DNA of 64,000 nucleotides from positions 102,891 to 166,890 of the forward strand of contig JBKBPM010000001.1 of NCBI GenBank assembly GCA_046293175.1, written 5' to 3'. Source of the stretch: Minisyncoccia bacterium. GTDB taxonomy: Bacteria > Patescibacteriota > Minisyncoccia > Phycocordibacterales > UBA918. Made by a program: the position numbers and the translations under genes. Of the stretch, positions 3,607 to 56,419 are shown piece after piece (within the stretch, counting starts at the first letter, position 1; every line of letters starts with the position of its first letter). Under the pieces are notes generated by a model. The model did not search any database. It saw only the letters and a program-made list of their open reading frames with translations, and had not been told where the DNA came from.

Positions 3607-3797
3607 GGCCGCGCAAGGGGTGGGAAGGGGCAAATTTACATGCCCTGACCCACCTTTTTCTATATTTGACATTCTGCTGGTTATGTTGACAAATACCGGC
3701 GGATATGATAAGATACTTGAGTGAACAGAACCTTTGCTCTTTGACGAAATTACTGTCAGAGCGAACCCAACGCGGTGTTACCGCAAGGAGACTCCAA

Positions 3798-4289
3798 ATG
3801 GACCGTCGCAACTTTCTTCTTAGCATGGGTGCTGCCGGTCTGGTGAGCACATTGCCGGACATGGCTGCTGCATGCCCAGCGAAAAAGGCAACCAACTGCG
3901 TCCTCGTGCCGGCGCCGAATCATCGGACTCTCGGAACGCTTGAGCAGGAGCTTGAGCATTGGGCATGGCTCTGCCATCCCGATTATGCCAAACTCAAGCA
4001 ACCTCGCTGGTGGTCGTACGTGATGGTCACCGACAAGAGCTATCCGGCAGCAGTTCAGAGGGTTCTCAACAATCCGAAGGCTCCGCTCCCGGATGAAGTC
4101 GAGGTGCATGGGCAAGAGTGCCGTCAGCAGTGGTTCAAACCGGGCTGGCGCGCTCTCACGGTCACCAACTGTCGTCGTGAAGACCGGCGTTGGACCTTCT
4201 TGCTCTCTCGGCGGTTGACTGCAAAAGATCAAGGTCAGCCGCTCAAGAAAGCGGACTGGCAAGATCTTGAACCGGTCTTCGACATCTGA
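3798..4289 (+). CDS. Secreted cysteine-rich protein with a twin-arginine (Tat)-type signal, in a GC-rich island
   Basis: RBS aaggag at 3785-3790, then ATG at 3798. MDRRNFLLSMGAAGLVSTLPDMAAA is a Tat-like RRxFL signal. 163 aa with 6 Cys. GC about 58%. Confidence 0.5.
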   Translation: MDRRNFLLSMGAAGLVSTLPDMAAACPAKKATNCVLVPAPNHRTLGTLEQELEHWAWLCHPDYAKLKQPRWWSYVMVTDKSYPAAVQRVLNNPKAPLPDEVEVHGQECRQQWFKPGWRALTVTNCRREDRRWTFLLSRRLTAKDQGQPLKKADWQDLEPVFDI

Positions 4290-17030: not shown

Positions 17031-17747
17031 ATGGAAACACGAAACATAGCGGATGACTTACAGGCGCTGGAGAAAATTCTCGGTGTCACTTTTTCTGATT
17101 CGCTCCTTTTACTTACTGCTATAACTCACCGTTCATATCTCAACGAACACCGAGATGCACAACAGGATCACAACGAACGACTTGAGTTTCTTGGCGATGC
17201 TGTTCTTGAACTGATTGTGACTGATTATCTCTTTCGTACCTATAGCGACAAACCAGAAGGAGAACTCACAGCGATACGAGCAGCGTTGGTGAACACCGTC
17301 TCACTTTCAGCCGCTTCAGAGAAGCTTGGGGTTAATAAGTATCTCCTTATGTCTAAGGGTGAAGCCAAAGACGAAGGACGAGCTCGTCAGTACATCCTCG
17401 CTAATGTGTTTGAGGCATTTATTGGAGCGATATTTCTTGACCAAGGGTACGAGGCCGCGCGTGCTTTTGTTGCTCGTGAGCTTTTTCCAAAAACCGACGA
17501 AATTGTCCGCAAGCGCCTATGGCAGGACCCAAAAAGTCGTTTCCAAGAGCTCGCTCAAGATTACGCGTCAATCACTCCAACCTACAACTTGCTTGGACAA
17601 GAAGGTCCAGATCATGATCGGATGTTTACTATTGGTGTCTATCTTCGTCACGAATTAGTGGCTGAAGGGAAGGGACGTTCAAAACAGGAAGCTGAACAGC
17701 AAGCCGCCTTGCGTGCCATTGCAGTCAAGGGTTGGGATGCTGACTAA
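17031..17747 (+). CDS. rnc: Ribonuclease III
   Basis: ERLEFLGDAVLELIV signature plus a dsRBD at the C-terminus. Confidence 0.9.
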   Translation: METRNIADDLQALEKILGVTFSDSLLLLTAITHRSYLNEHRDAQQDHNERLEFLGDAVLELIVTDYLFRTYSDKPEGELTAIRAALVNTVSLSAASEKLGVNKYLLMSKGEAKDEGRARQYILANVFEAFIGAIFLDQGYEAARAFVARELFPKTDEIVRKRLWQDPKSRFQELAQDYASITPTYNLLGQEGPDHDRMFTIGVYLRHELVAEGKGRSKQEAEQQAALRAIAVKGWDAD

Positions 17748-17804
17748 ATATAGTGTCCACACAAAGATAAAGAGAGCTCTTGGTGCGTGGTACACTAAGA
17801 GTGC

Positions 17805-18476
17805 ATGCAGCGCAAGTACTCTGCCGGTTTTTCACTCATCGAACTAATGGTTACCATTACCATTATTGGTATTTTGGCATCAATTATTTATGCCAATTTT
17901 GGTGGTGGCAATGCTAAAGCCCGTGATGCTAAGCGTCAGTCTGATTTGCGCATCATGCAAACGGCACTTGCTCAGTACAAACAACAGAATGGCCGATATC
18001 CGGCGATGGGGACTGATAGTAATGGTGATGGCTACGCTAGTGAAGGGGAGTCAGCTGCTTTTATTGTTGGGCTAACCCCAACCTACATAAATCGTTTACC
18101 AACCGATCCTCGTCGAGGCAGTAATCCTGGCTATTCATATGCAGTGGATAGTACCGGTAGCGTGTACAAGCTGGTTGCTCTTCGTACCGTTGAAACTGAA
18201 GTAGTGACCCATGAGCACCCATTTAAGAGTTGTGATATACGGGTAGGTAACAGTAGTGGATCTCTCGTCAGTGGTTCGACCGATCGTGAGGTGATTGGTT
18301 GGTGTGGACGTACAGCACAAGCGGGTAATGGTCTTCCAAGTTCATGTAATGCAGCTCAAGCGCCGTTTAATAATACCTACGGTGTTTGGGGAGGCTTTTT
18401 GCCAAAGACATCAGAAACCTGCGCTAACAATCTTACCAACTGTGTGCAAGATACAACTGCTATAATTTGTCTATGA
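17805..18476 (+). CDS. Type IV pilin / pseudopilin-like protein
   Basis: Prepilin N-terminal cleavage/methylation motif G-FSLIELMVTITIIGILASIIYA, followed by a Cys-containing globular domain. Confidence 0.75.
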   Translation: MQRKYSAGFSLIELMVTITIIGILASIIYANFGGGNAKARDAKRQSDLRIMQTALAQYKQQNGRYPAMGTDSNGDGYASEGESAAFIVGLTPTYINRLPTDPRRGSNPGYSYAVDSTGSVYKLVALRTVETEVVTHEHPFKSCDIRVGNSSGSLVSGSTDREVIGWCGRTAQAGNGLPSSCNAAQAPFNNTYGVWGGFLPKTSETCANNLTNCVQDTTAIICL

Positions 18477-18477
18477 T

Positions 18478-19020
18478 ATGAAAACACTTTCTTCACGCTT
18501 TGGCTTCACTTTAGTTGAACTGATGGTGGTCGTATCCGTGATTGGTATTCTTTCGAGTATTATTTATGCCAGTTTTGGTGGAGCAAGAGCAGCTGCTCGA
18601 GATGATGTACGCAAATCTGCTTTGAAGGAAGTACAGCTCGCACTCGAGCGCTATAAGGCTCAGTATGGCGTTTACCCTGCTCAGGGATGTGGCTCGTACC
18701 CAATCTATGCCGGAAGGGGTCCACATCCTGCTTGGGGTTGTTCTGCCGATCAGTACATTACTGGATTAGTACCGGACTTTATTTCCGAATTACCAAAAGA
18801 CCCAAATCAAGAAGATATTGATGGGTACGGCTATCTCTACCTCTCGACTGGAACCGATTATAAGTTAATTGCTCATCTCACTGTTGAGAAAAAACTCATT
18901 CAATCTTACAGGGATGAATTTGCGCGGTGCCCAGCTTCTATTGGTGCGGATCCGTGCGGGCCTGATCATCCTAACCCAAACACGTACGCCGTTTATTCAG
19001 CGGGTGCCGCAGGTTGGTAA
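18478..19020 (+). CDS. Type IV pilin-like protein (paralog A)
   Basis: GFTLVELMVVVSVIGILSSIIYA prepilin motif. About 60% identical to the next gene. Confidence 0.8.
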   Translation: MKTLSSRFGFTLVELMVVVSVIGILSSIIYASFGGARAAARDDVRKSALKEVQLALERYKAQYGVYPAQGCGSYPIYAGRGPHPAWGCSADQYITGLVPDFISELPKDPNQEDIDGYGYLYLSTGTDYKLIAHLTVEKKLIQSYRDEFARCPASIGADPCGPDHPNPNTYAVYSAGAAGW

Positions 19021-19028
19021 TTTAATTA

Positions 19029-19580
19029 ATGTCCCATCGTATGTATCGCTTTTTCAGAAAAACTGGCTTCACACTTGTCGAACTTATGGTAGTGATGTCG
19101 GTAATCGGTATTCTTTCGAGTATTGTCTATGCTAACTATAGCAGCTCTCGCGCCGTCTCGCGAGATGAGGTGCGTAAATCTGCACTCAAATCAATGCAGG
19201 TAGCGATTGAACTCTACAAATCTCAGTACGGCGTATATCCACCTCAAGGTTGTGGGACTTCACCAACTTGGGCTGGACCAGGACCACAACCGGCGTATGG
19301 TTGCACTGCTGACACGTACGTCACTGGTCTCGTACCAGATTTTATTGCTGCCTTGCCTACCGATCCGCTATCAGAAAATACCAACGGACTTGGCTTTTTA
19401 TATCGATCAACTGGTACTGATTACAAGCTTATGGTGCATAACTCAGTTGAAACTAAAACAGTCACTACCTATGAAGATGAGTTCGCCCGCTGTCCGCAGT
19501 CATATGGTACCGCTAATTGTCCCGCCGTACCGATGCCGCGTGTGTATGCTGTTTATTCGCCCGGTGCTGTTGGTTGGTAG
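19029..19580 (+). CDS. Type IV pilin-like protein (paralog B)
   Basis: GFTLVELMVVMSVIGILSSIVYA; a tandem duplicate of 18478-19020 (shared ...YGVYP.QGCG...GLVPDFI..LP.DP...YKL..H...E....Y.DEFARCP). Confidence 0.8.
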   Translation: MSHRMYRFFRKTGFTLVELMVVMSVIGILSSIVYANYSSSRAVSRDEVRKSALKSMQVAIELYKSQYGVYPPQGCGTSPTWAGPGPQPAYGCTADTYVTGLVPDFIAALPTDPLSENTNGLGFLYRSTGTDYKLMVHNSVETKTVTTYEDEFARCPQSYGTANCPAVPMPRVYAVYSPGAVGW

Positions 19581-19583
19581 TAT

Positions 19584-21839
19584 ATGTATCTCAAGGAACT
19601 AACCATCAATGGCTTTAAGTCATTTGCCAAAAAAAGTGAACTCGAATTCTCGGCTCCGATTACTGCTATTGTTGGGCCAAATGGCTCTGGTAAAAGTAAC
19701 GTGGCCGAGTCATTCCGGTTTGTTCTTGGTGAACAATCAGTGAAGTCACTGCGTGGGAAAAAAGGCGAAGATCTTATTTGGGGCGGGAGCGAGGCGGTGT
19801 CCCGAGGGAACCGCGCCTCGGTAGTGGTTGAGCTCGATAACACAAAACGCGTCTTTGCGCTTGATTTTGATACTATAAAAATTGAACGAGTGGTCCATCG
19901 TGATGGGCAAAACGAATATCTTATTAACGATACCCAAGTACGTCTCAAAGATGTTCAAGAGCTTCTTGCGGCAGCTAATATCGGTTCTACCGGTCACCAT
20001 ATTATTTCTCAAGGTGAGGCAGATCGTATTCTCTCTGCTTCAAGTCGCGAGCGTCGGGAGATGATTGAGGATGCACTTGGCTTGAAAGTCTATCAATATA
20101 AAAAGACCGAAGCAGAAAAAAAACTCGAAAAAACCAAAGAAAATATTGCTCAAGTAGAATCACTTCGCCGTGAACTTGCGCCACACCTAAAATATCTCAA
20201 AAAGCAGGTTGAGCGGGTCGAAAAATCATTGGCGGTCCAACAAGAGTTAAAAACGCTGTATGTTACCTACCTCAAACGTGAGGATACCTACCTCGCTTAT
20301 CATGCTGACCGACTTGATCTCGCGCGCCGTGCGCCAGCAAAACTGCTCTCTGAATTACAAGAGAAATTGGTGGCCGCCAAAACATTTTTGCGCAACGTCG
20401 AAGCCGCCAAAGACACGAGTGCTATTATTGAAGCCGAGGAAGCACTCGCCAAGTCGCGTAAGGTGCGAGCTGATTTGCTGCGAACCCTCGGTGCAGTCGA
20501 AGGAGAGGTGACGTACATACAACGCAAAATTGCGGGAGCGAGCCAGCGCGAACAGTCTGTCACAAAACAAGTGATAAGTGTTGAAGCTCTAGAAGAGCTT
20601 GTGGTTTCAGTTGAACAAGAAACCGAAAAGGCGCTCGCACGAGGAGACGAAGCAACACTTCGCCGTGCTCTCCAGGACCTCGTCCATAGTCTTAAGGCTT
20701 TTTTAAAGCGTACTGAGCCAACGACTTTTTCAGACACATCGCAACTTGAAGCAGAACTGCGCGAGACTGAAGCCAAACAAGCGGCACTGGCTCGGGACTA
20801 CGAACAGGCGCTTGCTGTGGAGAAGGGAGCTGAAGCCCATTATAACCACCTCAAACAAGCAATTGAAACCGAGGCGGCCTCGAGTCGTCAGGCCGAGCGA
20901 GCGGTATTTGAGCTCGTAGGTGAGGTGCGTAAGGTTGAGGTAGAGTTAGAGGCGATTGATCGTGAGCGTGAGCAGATCGACCGCGATCGCGAGGAATTCA
21001 AGCGAGAATTGCAAGAAGCAGTGGCGTTGATCAAGGGTGCTGCGGCTCAGTACTTTAATCATGAAATTATAGAAAATGGTGTGGTAGTAAGTCAGGAGGC
21101 GATTGTTGCTGAAGATCGTAACCTTCAGCGTGAGCGACGACGTGAACTTGAGAAGCTCAAGATTCGTCTTGAGGAACTCGGACAGGGTGCAACTGAAGAT
21201 GTACTCGACGAATACAACAAAGCGCTGGAACGCGACCAATTCCTCGAGCGCGAAACGACTGACCTCACGACCTCGGTGGCAAATCTTGAGAATCTTATTC
21301 TTGAGCTCAACAAAGAACTTCATGATCGGTTTGTGGTTGGCATAGACAAAATCACAGTCGAGTTCAACCGTTTCTTTGTGCTTATGTTTGGTGGGGGGAG
21401 CGCAAGCCTCAAGCGCGTGAAGCCAAAGGTAAAGCGTGTCACAGAAGACGGCGAAGAGGTAGAAGAAGACGGTGAAGAAACTGCCGAAGGGGTAGAAATT
21501 GATGTTAATTTACCGAACAAACGAGTCCGCGGACTTGATATGCTCTCAGGCGGCGAGCGAGCGCTCACTTCAATTGCGCTTATTTTCGCGATGAGTCAGA
21601 TTAACCCGCCACTCTTTATCATTCTTGACGAAACCGACGCGGCTCTTGATGAGGCTAATAGTCGTCGCTATGGTGACATGATTACTGCCTTAGCTGAAAA
21701 GTCACAGCTGATTCTCATTACCCACAACCGTGAGACGATGAGTCGTGCCGGGATCCTCTACGGAGTAACGATGGGTAGCGATGGGGTATCAAAACTCCTC
21801 TCGGTGAAGTTTGAGGAGGCGGTGGCGGTGGCAAAATGA
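19584..21839 (+). CDS. smc: SMC-family chromosome condensation ATPase; short at 751 aa, with no obvious hinge domain
   Basis: N-terminal Walker A (GPNGSGKSNV, RGKKGEDLIWGGSE). C-terminal signature/Walker B (LSGGERALTSIALIFAM, FIILDETDAALD). About 430 aa of coiled coil between them. Confidence 0.8.
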   Translation: MYLKELTINGFKSFAKKSELEFSAPITAIVGPNGSGKSNVAESFRFVLGEQSVKSLRGKKGEDLIWGGSEAVSRGNRASVVVELDNTKRVFALDFDTIKIERVVHRDGQNEYLINDTQVRLKDVQELLAAANIGSTGHHIISQGEADRILSASSRERREMIEDALGLKVYQYKKTEAEKKLEKTKENIAQVESLRRELAPHLKYLKKQVERVEKSLAVQQELKTLYVTYLKREDTYLAYHADRLDLARRAPAKLLSELQEKLVAAKTFLRNVEAAKDTSAIIEAEEALAKSRKVRADLLRTLGAVEGEVTYIQRKIAGASQREQSVTKQVISVEALEELVVSVEQETEKALARGDEATLRRALQDLVHSLKAFLKRTEPTTFSDTSQLEAELRETEAKQAALARDYEQALAVEKGAEAHYNHLKQAIETEAASSRQAERAVFELVGEVRKVEVELEAIDREREQIDRDREEFKRELQEAVALIKGAAAQYFNHEIIENGVVVSQEAIVAEDRNLQRERRRELEKLKIRLEELGQGATEDVLDEYNKALERDQFLERETTDLTTSVANLENLILELNKELHDRFVVGIDKITVEFNRFFVLMFGGGSASLKRVKPKVKRVTEDGEEVEEDGEETAEGVEIDVNLPNKRVRGLDMLSGGERALTSIALIFAMSQINPPLFIILDETDAALDEANSRRYGDMITALAEKSQLILITHNRETMSRAGILYGVTMGSDGVSKLLSVKFEEAVAVAK

Positions 21840-21854
21840 AATAAGCCAAAGAGG

Positions 21855-21912
21855 CCTTACGGGCCGATAATGGCGAATTTCCGTGAGCAAAGGCTATTCT
21901 AAATGCCTTTGT
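21855..21912 (+). ncRNA. Conserved 3'-UTR RNA motif (copy 1): shared 20-mer plus a hairpin whose stem covaries with copy 2
   Basis: cgataATGGCGAATTTCCGTGAG followed by hairpin caaaggc-tattctaaat-gcctttg. Copy 2 at 56066-56125 has the identical 20-mer, a similar loop (gattcctaat) and a different stem (tggcc/ggcca). Confidence 0.4.
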
Positions 21913-21985
21913 CCACGTCTCTCAGAGTATTATTTTGTTCTAAGTCATCCATCTGCTCAATTTACTGTAATAATCTAAATGTACT

Positions 21986-22915
21986 ATGTTTGATAAGTTC
22001 CGCCAATCTACATTCAGAAAAGATGAAGCTCCCGTTGATCCAAAGCGCCGCACCCTCATGTTCGGTGCTGTTGCTGGTGCAGCTGCGGTAGGGCTTGGTC
22101 TCACCGGAAAAGAAGAGAGAGGAAATTTTGTTCAAAGTAGTAATAAAGAACCGTTACGAGAGATAGAAGACGACCTTGCTGGTAAAGAGATTGAAGGAGT
22201 TGTGGAGCGTATGAAGACTGATAGTGGGCATTTTTTTGCTGAACGAGATATGTTTGCAGAAGGGTACGTTTCGGAGTTGCAACTAATGGAGAATCCAAAG
22301 CAGTTGAAAAAGCTTCTCGACGAACATTTTGATATGAGTGCTATACCTGACACTACTCTTCGTAAAGAAGTGATGGATAATATCTATGGACTGGCTCTGG
22401 TTGAGTCACGTTTTGATGAGACACGGGTCAGTGAAGCTGGAGCCTTTGGACTTATGCAATTAATGCCTGAGACTTGGAACAAACTCTCCTTGCCCGACGA
22501 GGACCCCACGAATGTGATTGATCAAATTAAAGTAGCGGCCCGATTAGTTGTACAATCTTATGTGTATATTTCGCAGCAGTGTCAAAACGAGCTCGATGTC
22601 ATCACAATTAATCATTTTGATGGTAACCAAAAGGCAATGATGCAATATTTTTTTGGTCCAGTATTAATTGGCGCGTATAACAGTGGTATGGGTAATCTCG
22701 AAAAAATTATCAAGCATTTTGTAAAGCTATATCCGACAACGAAAGAGACGACAGATATGTTTGATGGAGTCGATATTCCGACGGGGTATGATGTTTATTT
22801 TGGTATGACTAAAGCGGCAATGTTTGAAGAATGGCGGCCTTCGTACAAAATCCACGGCAGTGAGTATACTACCAAGGTGTATGGAGCAACCTATGCGATG
22901 AAGGGTACCGCATAG
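21986..22915 (+). CDS. Lytic transglycosylase (SLT domain) with an N-terminal RR-type signal
   Basis: ES...GAFGLMQLMPETW is a family-1 lytic transglycosylase motif. N-terminal KRRTLMFGAVAGAAAVGL. Confidence 0.7.
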   Translation: MFDKFRQSTFRKDEAPVDPKRRTLMFGAVAGAAAVGLGLTGKEERGNFVQSSNKEPLREIEDDLAGKEIEGVVERMKTDSGHFFAERDMFAEGYVSELQLMENPKQLKKLLDEHFDMSAIPDTTLRKEVMDNIYGLALVESRFDETRVSEAGAFGLMQLMPETWNKLSLPDEDPTNVIDQIKVAARLVVQSYVYISQQCQNELDVITINHFDGNQKAMMQYFFGPVLIGAYNSGMGNLEKIIKHFVKLYPTTKETTDMFDGVDIPTGYDVYFGMTKAAMFEEWRPSYKIHGSEYTTKVYGATYAMKGTA

Positions 22916-55016: not shown

Positions 55017-56042
55017 ATGAACACACAAGCAAAACTGTACGAAACAGTGGCTGCCATGATGGCACCAGGTAAAGGAATTTTAGCAGCGGACGAAAGTGAT
55101 GCGACCGCGGGGAAGCGTCTTGAGATGGTGCATCTCCCGAATAGTCCTGAGAATCGTCAGGATTTCCGCGAACTATTATTTACCGCCCCTGGTATTGAAG
55201 AATACCTCTCTGGCGTCATTATGTACGACTCATCAATGCGTACTAGTACCGATGCTGGTGTCCCATTCCCTGACGTGCTCACCGCCAAGGGCATTGTGCC
55301 AGGTATCAAAGTTGACCTCGGTACCAAGGATCTTGATGGCTTCCCAGGCGAGGTGGTGACCCAAGGTCTTGATGGTCTTGAAGACCGCTTTCTCGAATAC
55401 TATGACCTTGGTGCTCGCTTTGCGAAGTGGCGCGCGGTGGTAACGATTGATAAAGGTCTCCCGACCGACGCTTGTCTTGAAATCAATGCCGTGATGCTTG
55501 CCCGTTACGCGCAGATTGCGCAACGTTGTGGCATTGTCCCAATGGTAGAACCAGAAGTGATTTTTGCGGGGGACCACTCAATTATTGAAGCCGAACAGGT
55601 GACGACCCGAACGCTCCAAATTTTGTTCCAGACTCTCATGAAGTACCGCGTTGACCTCGGTGGTCTTATCCTCAAGTCGTCGATGGTACTGGCTGGTGAT
55701 CTTAATCGTGACCAATCAACTCCCGCTGAAGTAGCGAATGCTACGTTGCGGACTTTCCACATGTCGGTGCCGCACGAGGTCGGAGGCATTGTCTTCCTCT
55801 CGGGCGGTCAGTCACCAAAGCGTTCAACCGAGAATCTCAATGCGATTGGCAAGATGGGTCCTCAGCCATGGGCAATTACGTACTCGTACTCCCGCGCTAT
55901 TGAAGAGCCGTTCCTCCTTGCTTGGCAGGGTAAGCCAGAGAACACCGAAGAAGCCCAGAAGGTCCTTCTCCATGCCTGTAAGATGAATAGTTTGGCTACG
56001 GAAGGGAAATATGAAGTCACCCTTGATCAGATTCTGAAGTGA
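55017..56042 (+). CDS. fba: Fructose-bisphosphate aldolase, class I
   Basis: GKGILAADES, the Schiff-base lysine region (LEGTLLKP-like ILKSSMVLAG) and the C-terminal aldolase fold; 341 aa. Confidence 0.9.
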   Translation: MNTQAKLYETVAAMMAPGKGILAADESDATAGKRLEMVHLPNSPENRQDFRELLFTAPGIEEYLSGVIMYDSSMRTSTDAGVPFPDVLTAKGIVPGIKVDLGTKDLDGFPGEVVTQGLDGLEDRFLEYYDLGARFAKWRAVVTIDKGLPTDACLEINAVMLARYAQIAQRCGIVPMVEPEVIFAGDHSIIEAEQVTTRTLQILFQTLMKYRVDLGGLILKSSMVLAGDLNRDQSTPAEVANATLRTFHMSVPHEVGGIVFLSGGQSPKRSTENLNAIGKMGPQPWAITYSYSRAIEEPFLLAWQGKPENTEEAQKVLLHACKMNSLATEGKYEVTLDQILK

Positions 56043-56065
56043 AATGAGCCACAGAGCACGTAGCG

Positions 56066-56125
56066 CGACAATGGCGAATTTCCGTGAGTGTGGCCGATTC
56101 CTAATGGCCAGATCAATGTCTCAAA
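56066..56125 (+). ncRNA. Conserved 3'-UTR RNA motif (copy 2)
   Basis: cgacAATGGCGAATTTCCGTGAG followed by hairpin tggcc-gattcctaat-ggcca; see copy 1 at 21855-21912. Confidence 0.4.
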
Positions 56126-56204
56126 GATGTCTGCCTGCTTGGATGAAGTTACATTCCTCGCCTCGTCTTCGCTAGATTTTGAATCTCAATTAAAACAGCG
56201 ACAC

Positions 56205-56245
56205 CTGAAGTAAAACAAAACCCCGAATGGGGCTTTGTTTTACTT
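56205..56245. terminator. Bidirectional terminator between fba and rpmG
   Basis: gtaaaacaaaaccccgaatggggctttgttttac. Confidence 0.7.
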
Positions 56246-56419
56246 CTTCTGCTTGTACTTTGTGTGCTTTCGGGCAATTGGGTTGAACTTGACCGTTTCG
56301 TACTTCTTACTTGGGTCCTTCTTTACCTTGTTATTGTAGCGGGTGTAGTAAACATGACCTTTACCAACGCCATTTTCGTCGCCGACTGATACGAGTTTTA
56401 CGAGTAAATCTTGTGACAT
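56240..56419 (-). CDS. rpmG: 50S ribosomal protein L33
   Basis: MSQDLLVKLVSVGDENGVGKGHVYYTRYNNKVKKDPSKKYETVKFNPIARKHTKYKQKK resembles L33 (YTTTKNKRN...LELKKY.P...KHT.HKE). Start adjusted from the ORF track. Confidence 0.65.
   Translation of the reverse strand: MSQDLLVKLVSVGDENGVGKGHVYYTRYNNKVKKDPSKKYETVKFNPIARKHTKYKQKK

What the first reader, a model, noticed from the sequence alone, without database searches (positions are those of the whole stretch)
21855..21912. Repeated about 70-nt 3'-UTR motif with covarying stem after smc and after fba
Both copies contain the identical 20-mer AATGGCGAATTTCCGTGAG preceded by AGCCAnAGAG. A hairpin follows whose loops are near-identical (tattctaaat against gattcctaat) while the stems differ completely yet stay complementary (caaaggc/gcctttg against tggcc/ggcca). 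Compensatory stem changes with a conserved loop are the classic signature of a functional structured RNA, such as an sRNA, an RNA-binding-protein site or a 3'-UTR stability element. The second copy is at 56066-56125.
Basis: seen in the sequence. Interest (0 to 1): 0.55.

Follow-up and report, generated by a model that had tools for sequence, protein, structure and literature searches.

The report
Stop-codon-anchored structured RNA repeat element
The two look-alike stretches are copies of a previously undescribed, roughly 90-base folded repeat that sits exactly on the stop codon of unrelated housekeeping genes in a few tiny-genome (CPR) bacteria, and what it does there is still unknown.

Summary
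Both window copies (21837-21925 after smc, 56040-56126 after class-I fba) belong to a roughly 90-nt element that begins with the upstream gene's TGA stop codon. It folds into two adjacent stem-loops. The first is an irregular hairpin (P1 GAAAU/AUUUC, P1b GCCA/UGGC, variable tip).

I found at least 19 further distinct copies in CPR/Patescibacteria MAGs and metagenomes. None matched Rfam, phage, plasmid or viral collections. The variable stems covary (96.7% of cells paired, against 86% shuffled and 24-42% slid). Wobble pairs are strand-specific (22 G.U against 1 A.C), which indicates a sense-strand RNA.

In 9 of 11 gene contexts (smc, fba, dnaA, dnaN, yidC and others) the gene's stop codon lies at the element's first bases. 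TGA is otherwise the rarest stop codon in the window.

Close relatives lack the element at the same sites. They have TAA or TAG followed directly by a terminator or the next gene. Long, tandem, truncated and two antisense copies also exist.

Best reading: a lineage-restricted, modular interspersed repeat that is co-transcribed as 3'UTR and kept under selection for its fold and sequence. Its molecular function is inferred, not shown.

The parts
19584..21839 (+). SMC-family ORF (751 aa). Its TGA stop codon (21837-21839) is nt 1-3 of element copy 1.
   Evidence: ORF list. Pfam SMC_N, E 1.7e-61. Orthologues without the element end at the same Lys codon with TAA or TAG.
21837..21881 (+). Copy 1, module A, an irregular hairpin. 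P1 is 21838-21842 (GAAAU) paired with 21877-21881 (AUUUC). A 2x2 loop AA/GA follows. P1b is 21845-21848 (GCCA) paired with 21871-21874 (UGGC). Then an internal loop AAGA / GAUAA, and the variable tip hairpin at 21853-21865.
   Evidence: RNAalifold consensus. MFE fold equals the centroid fold. Pair counts.
21882..21917 (+). Copy 1, module B (P2). CGUG/CACG base, A.C 1x1 loop, conserved G.U pair, 7-bp variable stem caaaggc/gcctttg, loop UAUUCUAAAU (21895-21904).
   Evidence: Inverted repeat I1.
21918..21985 (+). Copy 1, tail UCUCUC and a poorly conserved 3' part of the insertion. It includes a degenerate CAYCUG..CAAUUUAC module (about 21951-21975) and an extended -10-like TGTAATAAT box 11 nt before the ATG of the SLT-domain gene (21986).
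   Evidence: Relatives have only 1-4 nt between the smc stop and the SLT ATG, so all 146 nt are inserted. Module comparison.
55017..56042 (+). Class-I fructose-bisphosphate aldolase ORF. Its TGA stop codon (56040-56042) is nt 1-3 of element copy 2.
   Evidence: Orthologues without the element end at the same codon with TAA or TAG.
56040..56082 (+). Copy 2, module A. P1 is 56041-56045 paired with 56078-56082. P1b is 56048-56051 paired with 56072-56075. The tip hairpin is 56056-66 (GCAC GUA GCGC, one A.C mismatch).
56083..56126 (+). Copy 2, module B (P2, 56083-56118, loop GAUUCCUAAU at 56096-56105, several mismatches) and tail UCUCAAAG.
56127..56206 (+). Rest of the fba 3'UTR between the element and the terminator. 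It contains GGATGAAGTTAC (56141-56152) and CACCTGAAGT (56202-56211), related to a module seen downstream of other copies.
56207..56246 (.). Bidirectional terminator-type hairpin shared by fba and the convergent rpmG (18-nt arms, 94% complementary). In relatives without the element it directly follows the fba stop codon.
   Evidence: I1. for the empty sites.

Best explanation
The two copies belong to a lineage-restricted family of short, modular interspersed repeat elements. The family has colonised the 3' boundary of genes in a small group of CPR/Patescibacteria; public relatives are labelled Saccharibacteria or Parcubacteria. A standard unit is about 90 nt. Module A is an irregular 45-nt hairpin whose first helix contains the GA of a UGA stop codon. 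Module B abuts it with no spacer and is a 12-bp hairpin with a 10-nt loop. A pyrimidine-rich tail follows. Optional modules exist: a roughly 55-nt insert with its own covarying hairpin, an alternative B' hairpin, and further tandem units.

Shown: the element is an insertion relative to close relatives, and it replaces the native TAA or TAG with its own TGA. It lies in the sense orientation between the ORF and the gene's terminator or the next gene. Its stems covary. Its wobble pairs are strand-specific for the mRNA sense. About 45 unpaired or P1/P1b nucleotides stay invariant although four-fold degenerate sites of the flanking genes are near saturation.

Inferred: the element is transcribed as the first part of the 3'UTR, and a sequence-specific trans-acting factor (a protein or a ribonuclease) recognises it. 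It would then act in cis on the mRNA, in 3' processing or stability, or by insulating translation termination from what lies downstream. The terminating ribosome necessarily melts P1 and P1b each round. The family spread by an unknown insertion or recombination process and was then retained at orthologous sites.
For: More copies: 6 loci in 3 species genomes and 14 true hits in metagenomes. Further copies came from orthologue contigs.

Structure: 25 pairs, 8 of them with compensatory changes. On 18 distinct copies, 96.7% of cells are paired, against 86.2% in shuffles (0 of 500 reach the observed value) and 24-42% when partners are slid. There are 50 double-changed cells against 19.3 in shuffles. 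G.U 22 against A.C 1. P1 and P1b vary only in pair-preserving ways: A3>G in L009, C10>U in L002, C45>U in L025. One double change, GGCA/UGCC, occurs in the second unit of L004.

Stop anchoring: the stop codon is element nt 1-3 after smc, fba, dnaA, dnaN, yidC, an amino-acid-kinase (AA_kinase family) gene, a MacB/FtsX permease gene and an unknown 463-474-aa gene. After rplB it is TAG, shifted by 1 nt. In the window, stop usage is TGA 5 of 48, and 2 of those 5 belong to the element.

Insertion: fba relatives at 85-88% identity have TAA or TAG followed by the terminator. smc relatives at 73-88% identity have 1-4 nt between the stop and the next ATG.

Constraint: identity at four-fold degenerate sites is only 34-54% between the genomes that share the element.

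Modularity: long form in L025 and L003b, tandem units in L011 and L004, truncated units after L003 dnaN. The same stem variants recur with different partners in different loci and genomes.
Against: There are no expression data, so transcription and folding in vivo are inferred. Two well-preserved copies are not at stop codons and lie antisense to both neighbours: L005/L021 between tig and clpP, and L018 between an M50 protease gene and rpsL. Stop anchoring is therefore not obligatory, and a sense-mRNA role cannot explain those copies. P1 and P1b show almost no covariation, so they may be conserved as sequence rather than as a helix. Sharing of identical stem variants between loci means the compensatory cells are not independent events. 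It also leaves open that sequence identity reflects recent spread or gene conversion rather than host-level selection. No trans-acting factor, transposase, terminal inverted repeat or clear target duplication was found. Window copy 2 is partly degraded.
Confidence: 0.55

Rival explanations
1. A dedicated, host-encoded cis-regulatory RNA rather than a repeat of mobile origin. It could be the binding site of one RNA-binding protein that defines a post-transcriptional regulon of replication, segregation and growth genes (dnaA, dnaN, smc, yidC, fba and others). It could also be a small ribozyme or aptamer placed at the stop codon.
For: Invariant unpaired nucleotides with covarying stems is the pattern typical of protein- or ligand-binding RNAs. 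The element is conserved at orthologous sites despite saturated neutral sites. Several host genes are functionally related. The register with the stop codon is fixed.
Against: Very close relatives show presence/absence differences at the same site. One genome has the element at fba but not at smc. Tandem, truncated and antisense intergenic copies exist. Stems are shuffled between loci. No Rfam ribozyme or riboswitch model matches, even at E of 10 or less.
Confidence: 0.2
2. A purely selfish DNA element whose hairpins matter as single-stranded DNA, for example as substrates of an HUH/Y1-type transposase as with REP/RAYT or IS200/IS605-derived elements. On this view it has no role as RNA.
For: Insertion polymorphism. 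Mosaic, tandem and fragment copies. Copies in either orientation relative to neighbouring genes. Sequence-invariant 'stems' P1 and P1b that look like protein recognition sequences. G.T pairs are also tolerated in DNA hairpins.
Against: No terminal inverted repeats, no inverted doublets and no conserved short target motif. No transposase was seen in about 400 kb of fetched flanks, though these were not searched systematically. Neutral decay would have erased orthologous copies, given 34-54% identity at four-fold sites. 9 of 11 contexts are exactly on real stop codons and co-oriented with the gene. A DNA target as short as T|AA or T|AG cannot explain that, because such trinucleotides are far more common outside stop codons.
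Confidence: 0.15
3. An unconventional transcription terminator or insulator: module B followed by a pyrimidine tail ends transcription of the upstream gene.
For: It always lies at the 3' end of a gene. It has a stable GC-rich 12-bp hairpin. A C-rich, G-poor tract follows in many copies, which could serve Rho loading.
Against: No U-tract follows the hairpin. In the fba, dnaN, yidC, rplB and AA-kinase contexts, a canonical hairpin with a T-tract follows further downstream. Relatives lacking the element use that terminator directly. This view explains neither module A nor the stop-codon overlap.
Confidence: 0.05
4. An independently transcribed small RNA gene, or a chance or segmental duplicate.
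For: Two similar copies in one window. Compact, stable fold.
Against: No promoter-like site lies upstream of either copy. The element starts inside the stop codon of the upstream ORF. The chance expectation for the 19-mer is 0.02. The flanks are unrelated. There are at least 19 further distinct copies elsewhere.
Confidence: 0.03

Closest known systems
REP / BIME elements of enterobacteria (from my own knowledge; no sequence comparison was possible)
   Same: Short extragenic imperfect palindromes, many per genome, mostly between a stop codon and a terminator. They are co-transcribed into 3'UTRs, show compensatory changes in their stems, and occur in mosaic clusters. REPs close to stop codons have been reported to affect translation of the upstream gene and mRNA stability.
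   Different: This element has two dissimilar hairpins with long invariant unpaired blocks. Its units are in tandem direct order, not inverted doublets. Copy number is low (two in 64 kb; at least 6 loci in one MAG). The fixed overlap with the stop codon is not a REP feature. No RAYT gene is known here.
BOX elements of Streptococcus pneumoniae (own knowledge)
   Same: Modular build: a 5' module, a repeatable middle module and a 3' module. Strong predicted RNA structure, intergenic location, co-transcription with neighbouring genes.
   Different: No sequence relation was tested or is expected. BOX elements are not anchored on stop codons.
MIRU (mycobacterial interspersed repetitive units) (own knowledge)
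   Same: Inserted in intercistronic spacers of operons, co-oriented with the genes, with ends that overlap the stop codon of the upstream gene. The smc-SLT junction here is an intercistronic insertion of that kind.
   Different: MIRUs are thought to carry a small in-frame ORF that couples translation. Here length differences are not multiples of three, and the AUG is AUA in 4 of the 18 aligned copies, so no ORF is conserved. MIRUs are not defined by covarying hairpins.
Correia / NEMIS elements of Neisseria and other MITEs (own knowledge)
   Same: About 100-150-nt insertions with presence/absence polymorphism. They are co-transcribed, fold into hairpins that are processed by RNase III, and can supply promoters or stop codons.
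   Different: MITEs have terminal inverted repeats and target-site duplications. Neither was found here.
Integron attC sites (own knowledge)
   Same: Module A has a similar architecture: two short conserved boxes separated by an unpaired spacer and closed by a variable tip, lying directly after (often overlapping) the stop codon of an ORF. Structure rather than tip sequence is conserved.
   Different: The R''/R' core sequences (RYYYAAC / GTTRRRY) are absent. The host genes are core housekeeping genes, not cassettes. The wobble asymmetry points to the sense strand.

Membership tests
Any Rfam 15 family | Covariance-model score at or above the family's gathering threshold | tested here: not met
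   No hit in the window or in loci L001-L006 at gathering thresholds. Around copy 1 at E of 10 or less there was only noise: snoRNA and miRNA models at 10-18 bits.
Structured cis-acting RNA (generic) | Base pairs maintained by compensatory changes on the transcribed strand | tested here: met
   8 pairs show double changes. 96.7% of cells are paired, against 86.2% shuffled and 24-42% slid. 22 G.U against 1 A.C. Caveat: stem variants are shared between copies, so the events are not independent.
Intrinsic (Rho-independent) terminator | GC-rich hairpin immediately followed by a U-tract | tested here: not met
   P2 is followed by UCUCUC or UCUCAA. The scan reports no terminator at either element. 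In copy 2 a separate terminator-type hairpin lies about 90 nt further on.
MITE | Terminal inverted repeats | tested here: not met
   No inverted repeat joins the two ends of either insertion.
MITE | Target-site duplication | tested here: inconclusive
   CTGAAGTGAAA (56034) and CTGAAGTAAAA (56205) flank copy 2. However, the second is constrained as the terminator arm complementary to the end of rpmG. No comparable repeat is seen at other loci.
MITE / interspersed repeat | Occupied and empty orthologous sites in related genomes | tested here: met
   fba: occupied in the window, L024, L025 and L028; empty in L032-L036. smc: occupied in the window, L006 and L013; empty in L037-L040.
REP / REPIN / BIME | Inverted doublets or alternating orientation of the palindromic units | tested here: not met
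   Multi-unit loci (L004, L011, L003) carry units in the same orientation.
REP / REPIN / BIME | Cognate RAYT (Y1 transposase) gene in the genome | not tested
   Only fragments of the genomes were available. No systematic protein search was done.
MIRU-type intercistronic repeat | Conserved internal ORF whose ends overlap the flanking stop and start codons | tested here: not met
   The upstream stop overlap is met. The tip hairpin varies by 11, 12 or 13 nt, and AUG is AUA in the window copy 1, L001, L004 and L007, so no reading frame is conserved.
Recoding signal at UGA (SECIS / read-through stimulator) | The ORF continues in frame beyond the UGA | tested here: not met
   An in-frame UAG follows within 8 codons in many copies. 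Orthologues without the element end at exactly the same codon.
Integron attC | R''/R' core sites and a cassette or integrase context | tested here: not met
   The core sequences are absent on direct reading. The upstream genes are dnaA, dnaN, smc, fba, yidC, rplB and similar.

The most novel reading that the evidence does not exclude
The element is mechanistically tied to translation termination. One form of this reading is a mobile element that homes to genuine stop codons, replacing TAA or TAG with its own UGA. The other is a cis-acting RNA whose basal helix is opened by the terminating ribosome and RF2, so that the fate of the mRNA (processing, decay, downstream expression) is coupled to termination at UGA. 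Neither kind of element is described for bacteria.
Probability: 0.25. Interest if true: 0.85.

Novelty: new variant of a known kind. Interest (0 to 1): 0.55.

Why it matters
CPR/Patescibacteria have tiny genomes, little intergenic space and few known regulatory RNAs. A conserved 90-nt structured insertion here supplies the stop codon of core genes such as dnaA, dnaN, smc, yidC and fba, and it persists while neutral sites saturate. It is therefore unlikely to be junk. It could reveal a new post-transcriptional control point at translation termination, or a new way for a small element to target gene ends. In practical terms it is a candidate new RNA family for Rfam. It is also a marker for one lineage, and a caution for gene-boundary and stop-codon statistics in these genomes.

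Tried and rejected
1. Rfam at gathering and at permissive thresholds, and tRNA/tmRNA scans: nothing found.
2. A protein-coding or small-ORF reading was rejected. Length variation is not in threes, and the AUG is not conserved.
3. Read-through or SECIS was rejected (see the membership test).
4. I used the single metagenome scan with a pattern that left P1 and P1b free, hoping for covariation there. Every true hit kept AATGGCGAATTTCC unchanged, so P1 and P1b remain supported only by wobble-compatible changes and one double change.
5. Pseudoknots: CAGAG with the CUCU tail, and the loop with GAAU. Variants are not compensated (reading), so this was dropped.
6. K-turn: the bulge length and the strand arrangement do not fit (reading only).
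7. Terminal inverted repeats and target duplications: none convincing.
8. CACCTGAAGT as the 3' end or an att core: it recurs in several loci, but homology continues beyond it, so the 3' boundary is undefined.
9. The CACCTGAAATGAG match at window 50213 lies inside a minus-strand ORF and is a chance match.
10. Phage, plasmid and IMG/VR searches and literature searches, including for the sequence itself: no hits.
11. L010, L015, L020 and L023 from the metagenome scan are chance pattern matches.

Full report
OBSERVATION. The 19-mer AATGGCGAATTTCCGTGAG is present exactly twice, at 21869 and 56070 on the + strand. Even with three mismatches there is no third match, and chance expectation is 0.02. 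The upstream ORFs are an SMC-family protein and a class-I fructose-bisphosphate aldolase. Similarity starts earlier than reported, at the T of each TGA stop codon (21837 and 56040), and extends to about 21925 and 56126.

MORE COPIES. One scan of species-representative genomes with the 19-mer gave six loci in three CPR MAGs, labelled Saccharibacteria, Parcubacteria and 'uncultured bacterium'. For the single metagenome scan I used a pattern that left the putative basal helices unconstrained. It returned 18 loci. Fourteen were real, some duplicating the MAG contigs, and four were chance matches. Contigs carrying close homologues of the window's aldolase and SMC added further occupied and empty sites. 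Nothing matched in Rfam, phage records, plasmids or IMG/VR. The sequence does not occur in the searchable literature.

ANATOMY. RNAalifold on eight copies gives two adjacent stem-loops.
- Module A: P1 is GAAAU/AUUUC, whose G and A are the last two bases of the UGA. A 2x2 loop RA/GA follows, then P1b GCCA/UGGC, an asymmetric loop CAGA/GACAA, and a 4-bp tip hairpin of variable sequence.
- Module B starts at the next nucleotide: CGUG/CACG, a 1x1 loop, a conserved G.U pair, a 7-bp variable stem and the loop UAUYCNUAAU.
- A UCUC-type tail follows.

A covariance model scores the window copies 104.8 and 99.6 bits, against 16.7 for the next hit in the window. On 18 distinct copies, 96.7% of pair cells are standard pairs, against 86.2% in shuffles and 24-42% with slid partners. 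Double changes number 50 against 19.3 in shuffles. Two pairs of the tip hairpin and six pairs of P2 covary. Wobble pairs are strongly asymmetric, 22 G.U against 1 A.C, so the fold belongs to the sense strand.

P1 and P1b are almost invariant. The only changes preserve pairing: G.U in L009, U.G in L002, G.U in L025, and one GGCA/UGCC double change in the second unit of L004. Copy 1 folds with z = -5.1. Copy 2 carries mismatches and folds with z = -1.4.

STOP-CODON ANCHORING. The upstream ORF's stop codon is the element's nt 1-3 after these genes:
- smc (window, L006, L013)
- fba (window, L024, L025, L028)
- dnaA (L003)
- dnaN (L001, once the frame across an N-gap is corrected)
- yidC (L011, L016)
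- an amino-acid-kinase (AA_kinase family) gene (L007)
- a MacB/FtsX permease gene (L004/L014)
- an unknown 463-474-aa gene (L002, L008)

After rplB (L009) the stop is TAG, shifted by one base, and P1 keeps pairing through a G.U pair. In the window TGA is the rarest stop codon: 5 of 48 ORFs, two of which are these. UGAAAURA also closes a second reading frame (URA).

Two copies are exceptions. L005/L021 lies between tig and clpP, and L018 lies between an M50 protease gene and rpsL. Both are antisense to their neighbours, and L005 has AGA in place of TGA.

THE ELEMENT IS AN INSERTION. Aldolase genes that are 85-88% identical to the window's end at the same codon with TAA or TAG. The fba/rpmG bidirectional terminator follows directly (L032-L036). 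SMC genes that are 73-88% identical have only 1-4 nt between their TAA or TAG and the ATG of the SLT-domain gene (L037-L040). No model hit occurs in those 89 kb. In the window, L013 and L006 about 146 nt lie between the two ORFs. One genome has the element at fba (long form, L025) but not at smc (L039).

THE ELEMENT IS MODULAR.
- L025 and a truncated copy in L003 carry a roughly 55-nt insert between P1 and P2. The insert has its own covarying hairpin (AUUUUCA/UGAAAAU against AUUUUUA/UAAAAAU).
- L002, L007 and L008 replace module B with another hairpin (CCUCU-UAC-AGAGG against UUUCU-UAC-AGAAA).
- L011 and L004 have two or three tandem units, whose later units begin differently (..GGGCAC.CUCUU..).
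- Fragments follow dnaN in L003.
- Identical stem variants recur with different partners in different loci and genomes. This points to recombination or conversion among copies.

CONSTRAINT. Between the window and the genomes that share the element at orthologous sites, four-fold degenerate sites of fba and smc are only 34-54% identical. The roughly 45 unpaired or basal-helix nucleotides are nevertheless unchanged. Either selection maintains them or copies are continually renewed.

INTERPRETATION. The safest statement is that this is a new, narrowly distributed family of modular interspersed repeats. It is co-oriented with the upstream gene and fused to its stop codon, and it lies upstream of the gene's terminator where one exists, so it would be transcribed as 3'UTR. 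It is under selection for an RNA fold and for specific unpaired sequence, which implies recognition by a trans-acting factor.

I favour a cis role on the mRNA: processing or stability, or insulation at the point of translation termination. This step is inference. A terminator role is unlikely, because there is no U-tract and a canonical terminator lies downstream. An independent sRNA is unlikely, because no promoter is predicted. A purely DNA-level selfish element cannot be excluded, but it does not explain the enrichment on genuine stop codons or the persistence at orthologous sites.

The closest known kinds are REP/BIME, BOX, MIRU and Correia elements, compared here from my own knowledge. 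None combines two dissimilar covarying hairpins with a fixed overlap of the stop codon.

VERDICT. The element is a new variant of a known kind. Its function is unresolved. Interest is moderate to high.

Noticed in passing
L035:1574-1695: In another relative a different insertion of about 122 nt sits one base after the fba TAG stop codon, before the terminator. It has nested inverted repeats: 13-nt terminal arms at 85% and an inner 21-nt pair. Gene ends seem to be a preferred landing place for small elements in these genomes.
   Followed up: partly
L002 (minus strand) 2078-2216; L008 1986-2069; L004 385-480; L007: Further repeated intergenic modules are shared between loci with different flanking genes: CCTCTTACAGAGGCTGTCCAC..ATTGG.CTATTTGTT and CTCACAAATATYCACAATGAGTCTTGCGAAATGGGTC. 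The second is 90% identical over 93 nt between L014 and L002. Their nature is unknown.
   Followed up: partly
window 21962-21985; L013 and L006 equivalents; L002/L008 upstream of tpiA: Extended -10-like boxes (TGTAATAAT, TGTGATAAT, TGCTACACT) end 9-11 nt before the ATG, and no Shine-Dalgarno sequence is visible. This suggests leaderless or near-leaderless mRNAs. At the smc-SLT junction the box lies inside the inserted segment.
   Followed up: no
window 1-64000: No tRNA, tmRNA or Rfam family was detected in the 64 kb. Stop codon usage is TAA 29, TAG 14, TGA 5.
   Followed up: yes
L009 (minus strand) 3776-4000 and downstream: The C-terminus of ribosomal protein L2 is followed by the element, a terminator-like hairpin and a hypothetical 241-aa gene, not by rpsS. 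Either the S10 operon is broken here or this is a second rplB copy.
   Followed up: no
window 17031-22915; L037-L040: The gene order RNase III, two N-methyl (pilin-like) proteins, a short 751-aa SMC and an SLT-domain protein is conserved across relatives. RNase R and a KhpA-type KH protein lie nearby.
   Followed up: no
window 56034-56044 and 56205-56215: The direct repeat CTGAAGTGAAA / CTGAAGTAAAA brackets copy 2 and the rest of the fba 3'UTR. It could be a target duplication. It could also be a coincidence, because the second copy is the terminator arm complementary to the end of rpmG.
   Followed up: partly
L001:6515-6620; L016/L017: Assembly artefacts. An N-run in L001 has duplicated flanks that shift the dnaN frame. 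An apparent frameshift lies 58 codons before the end of yidC in L016 and L017.
   Followed up: partly
window 21895-21905 and 21971-21981: The P2 loop sequence TATTCTAAATG recurs as TAATCTAAATG just upstream of the SLT start codon. The significance is unknown.
   Followed up: no
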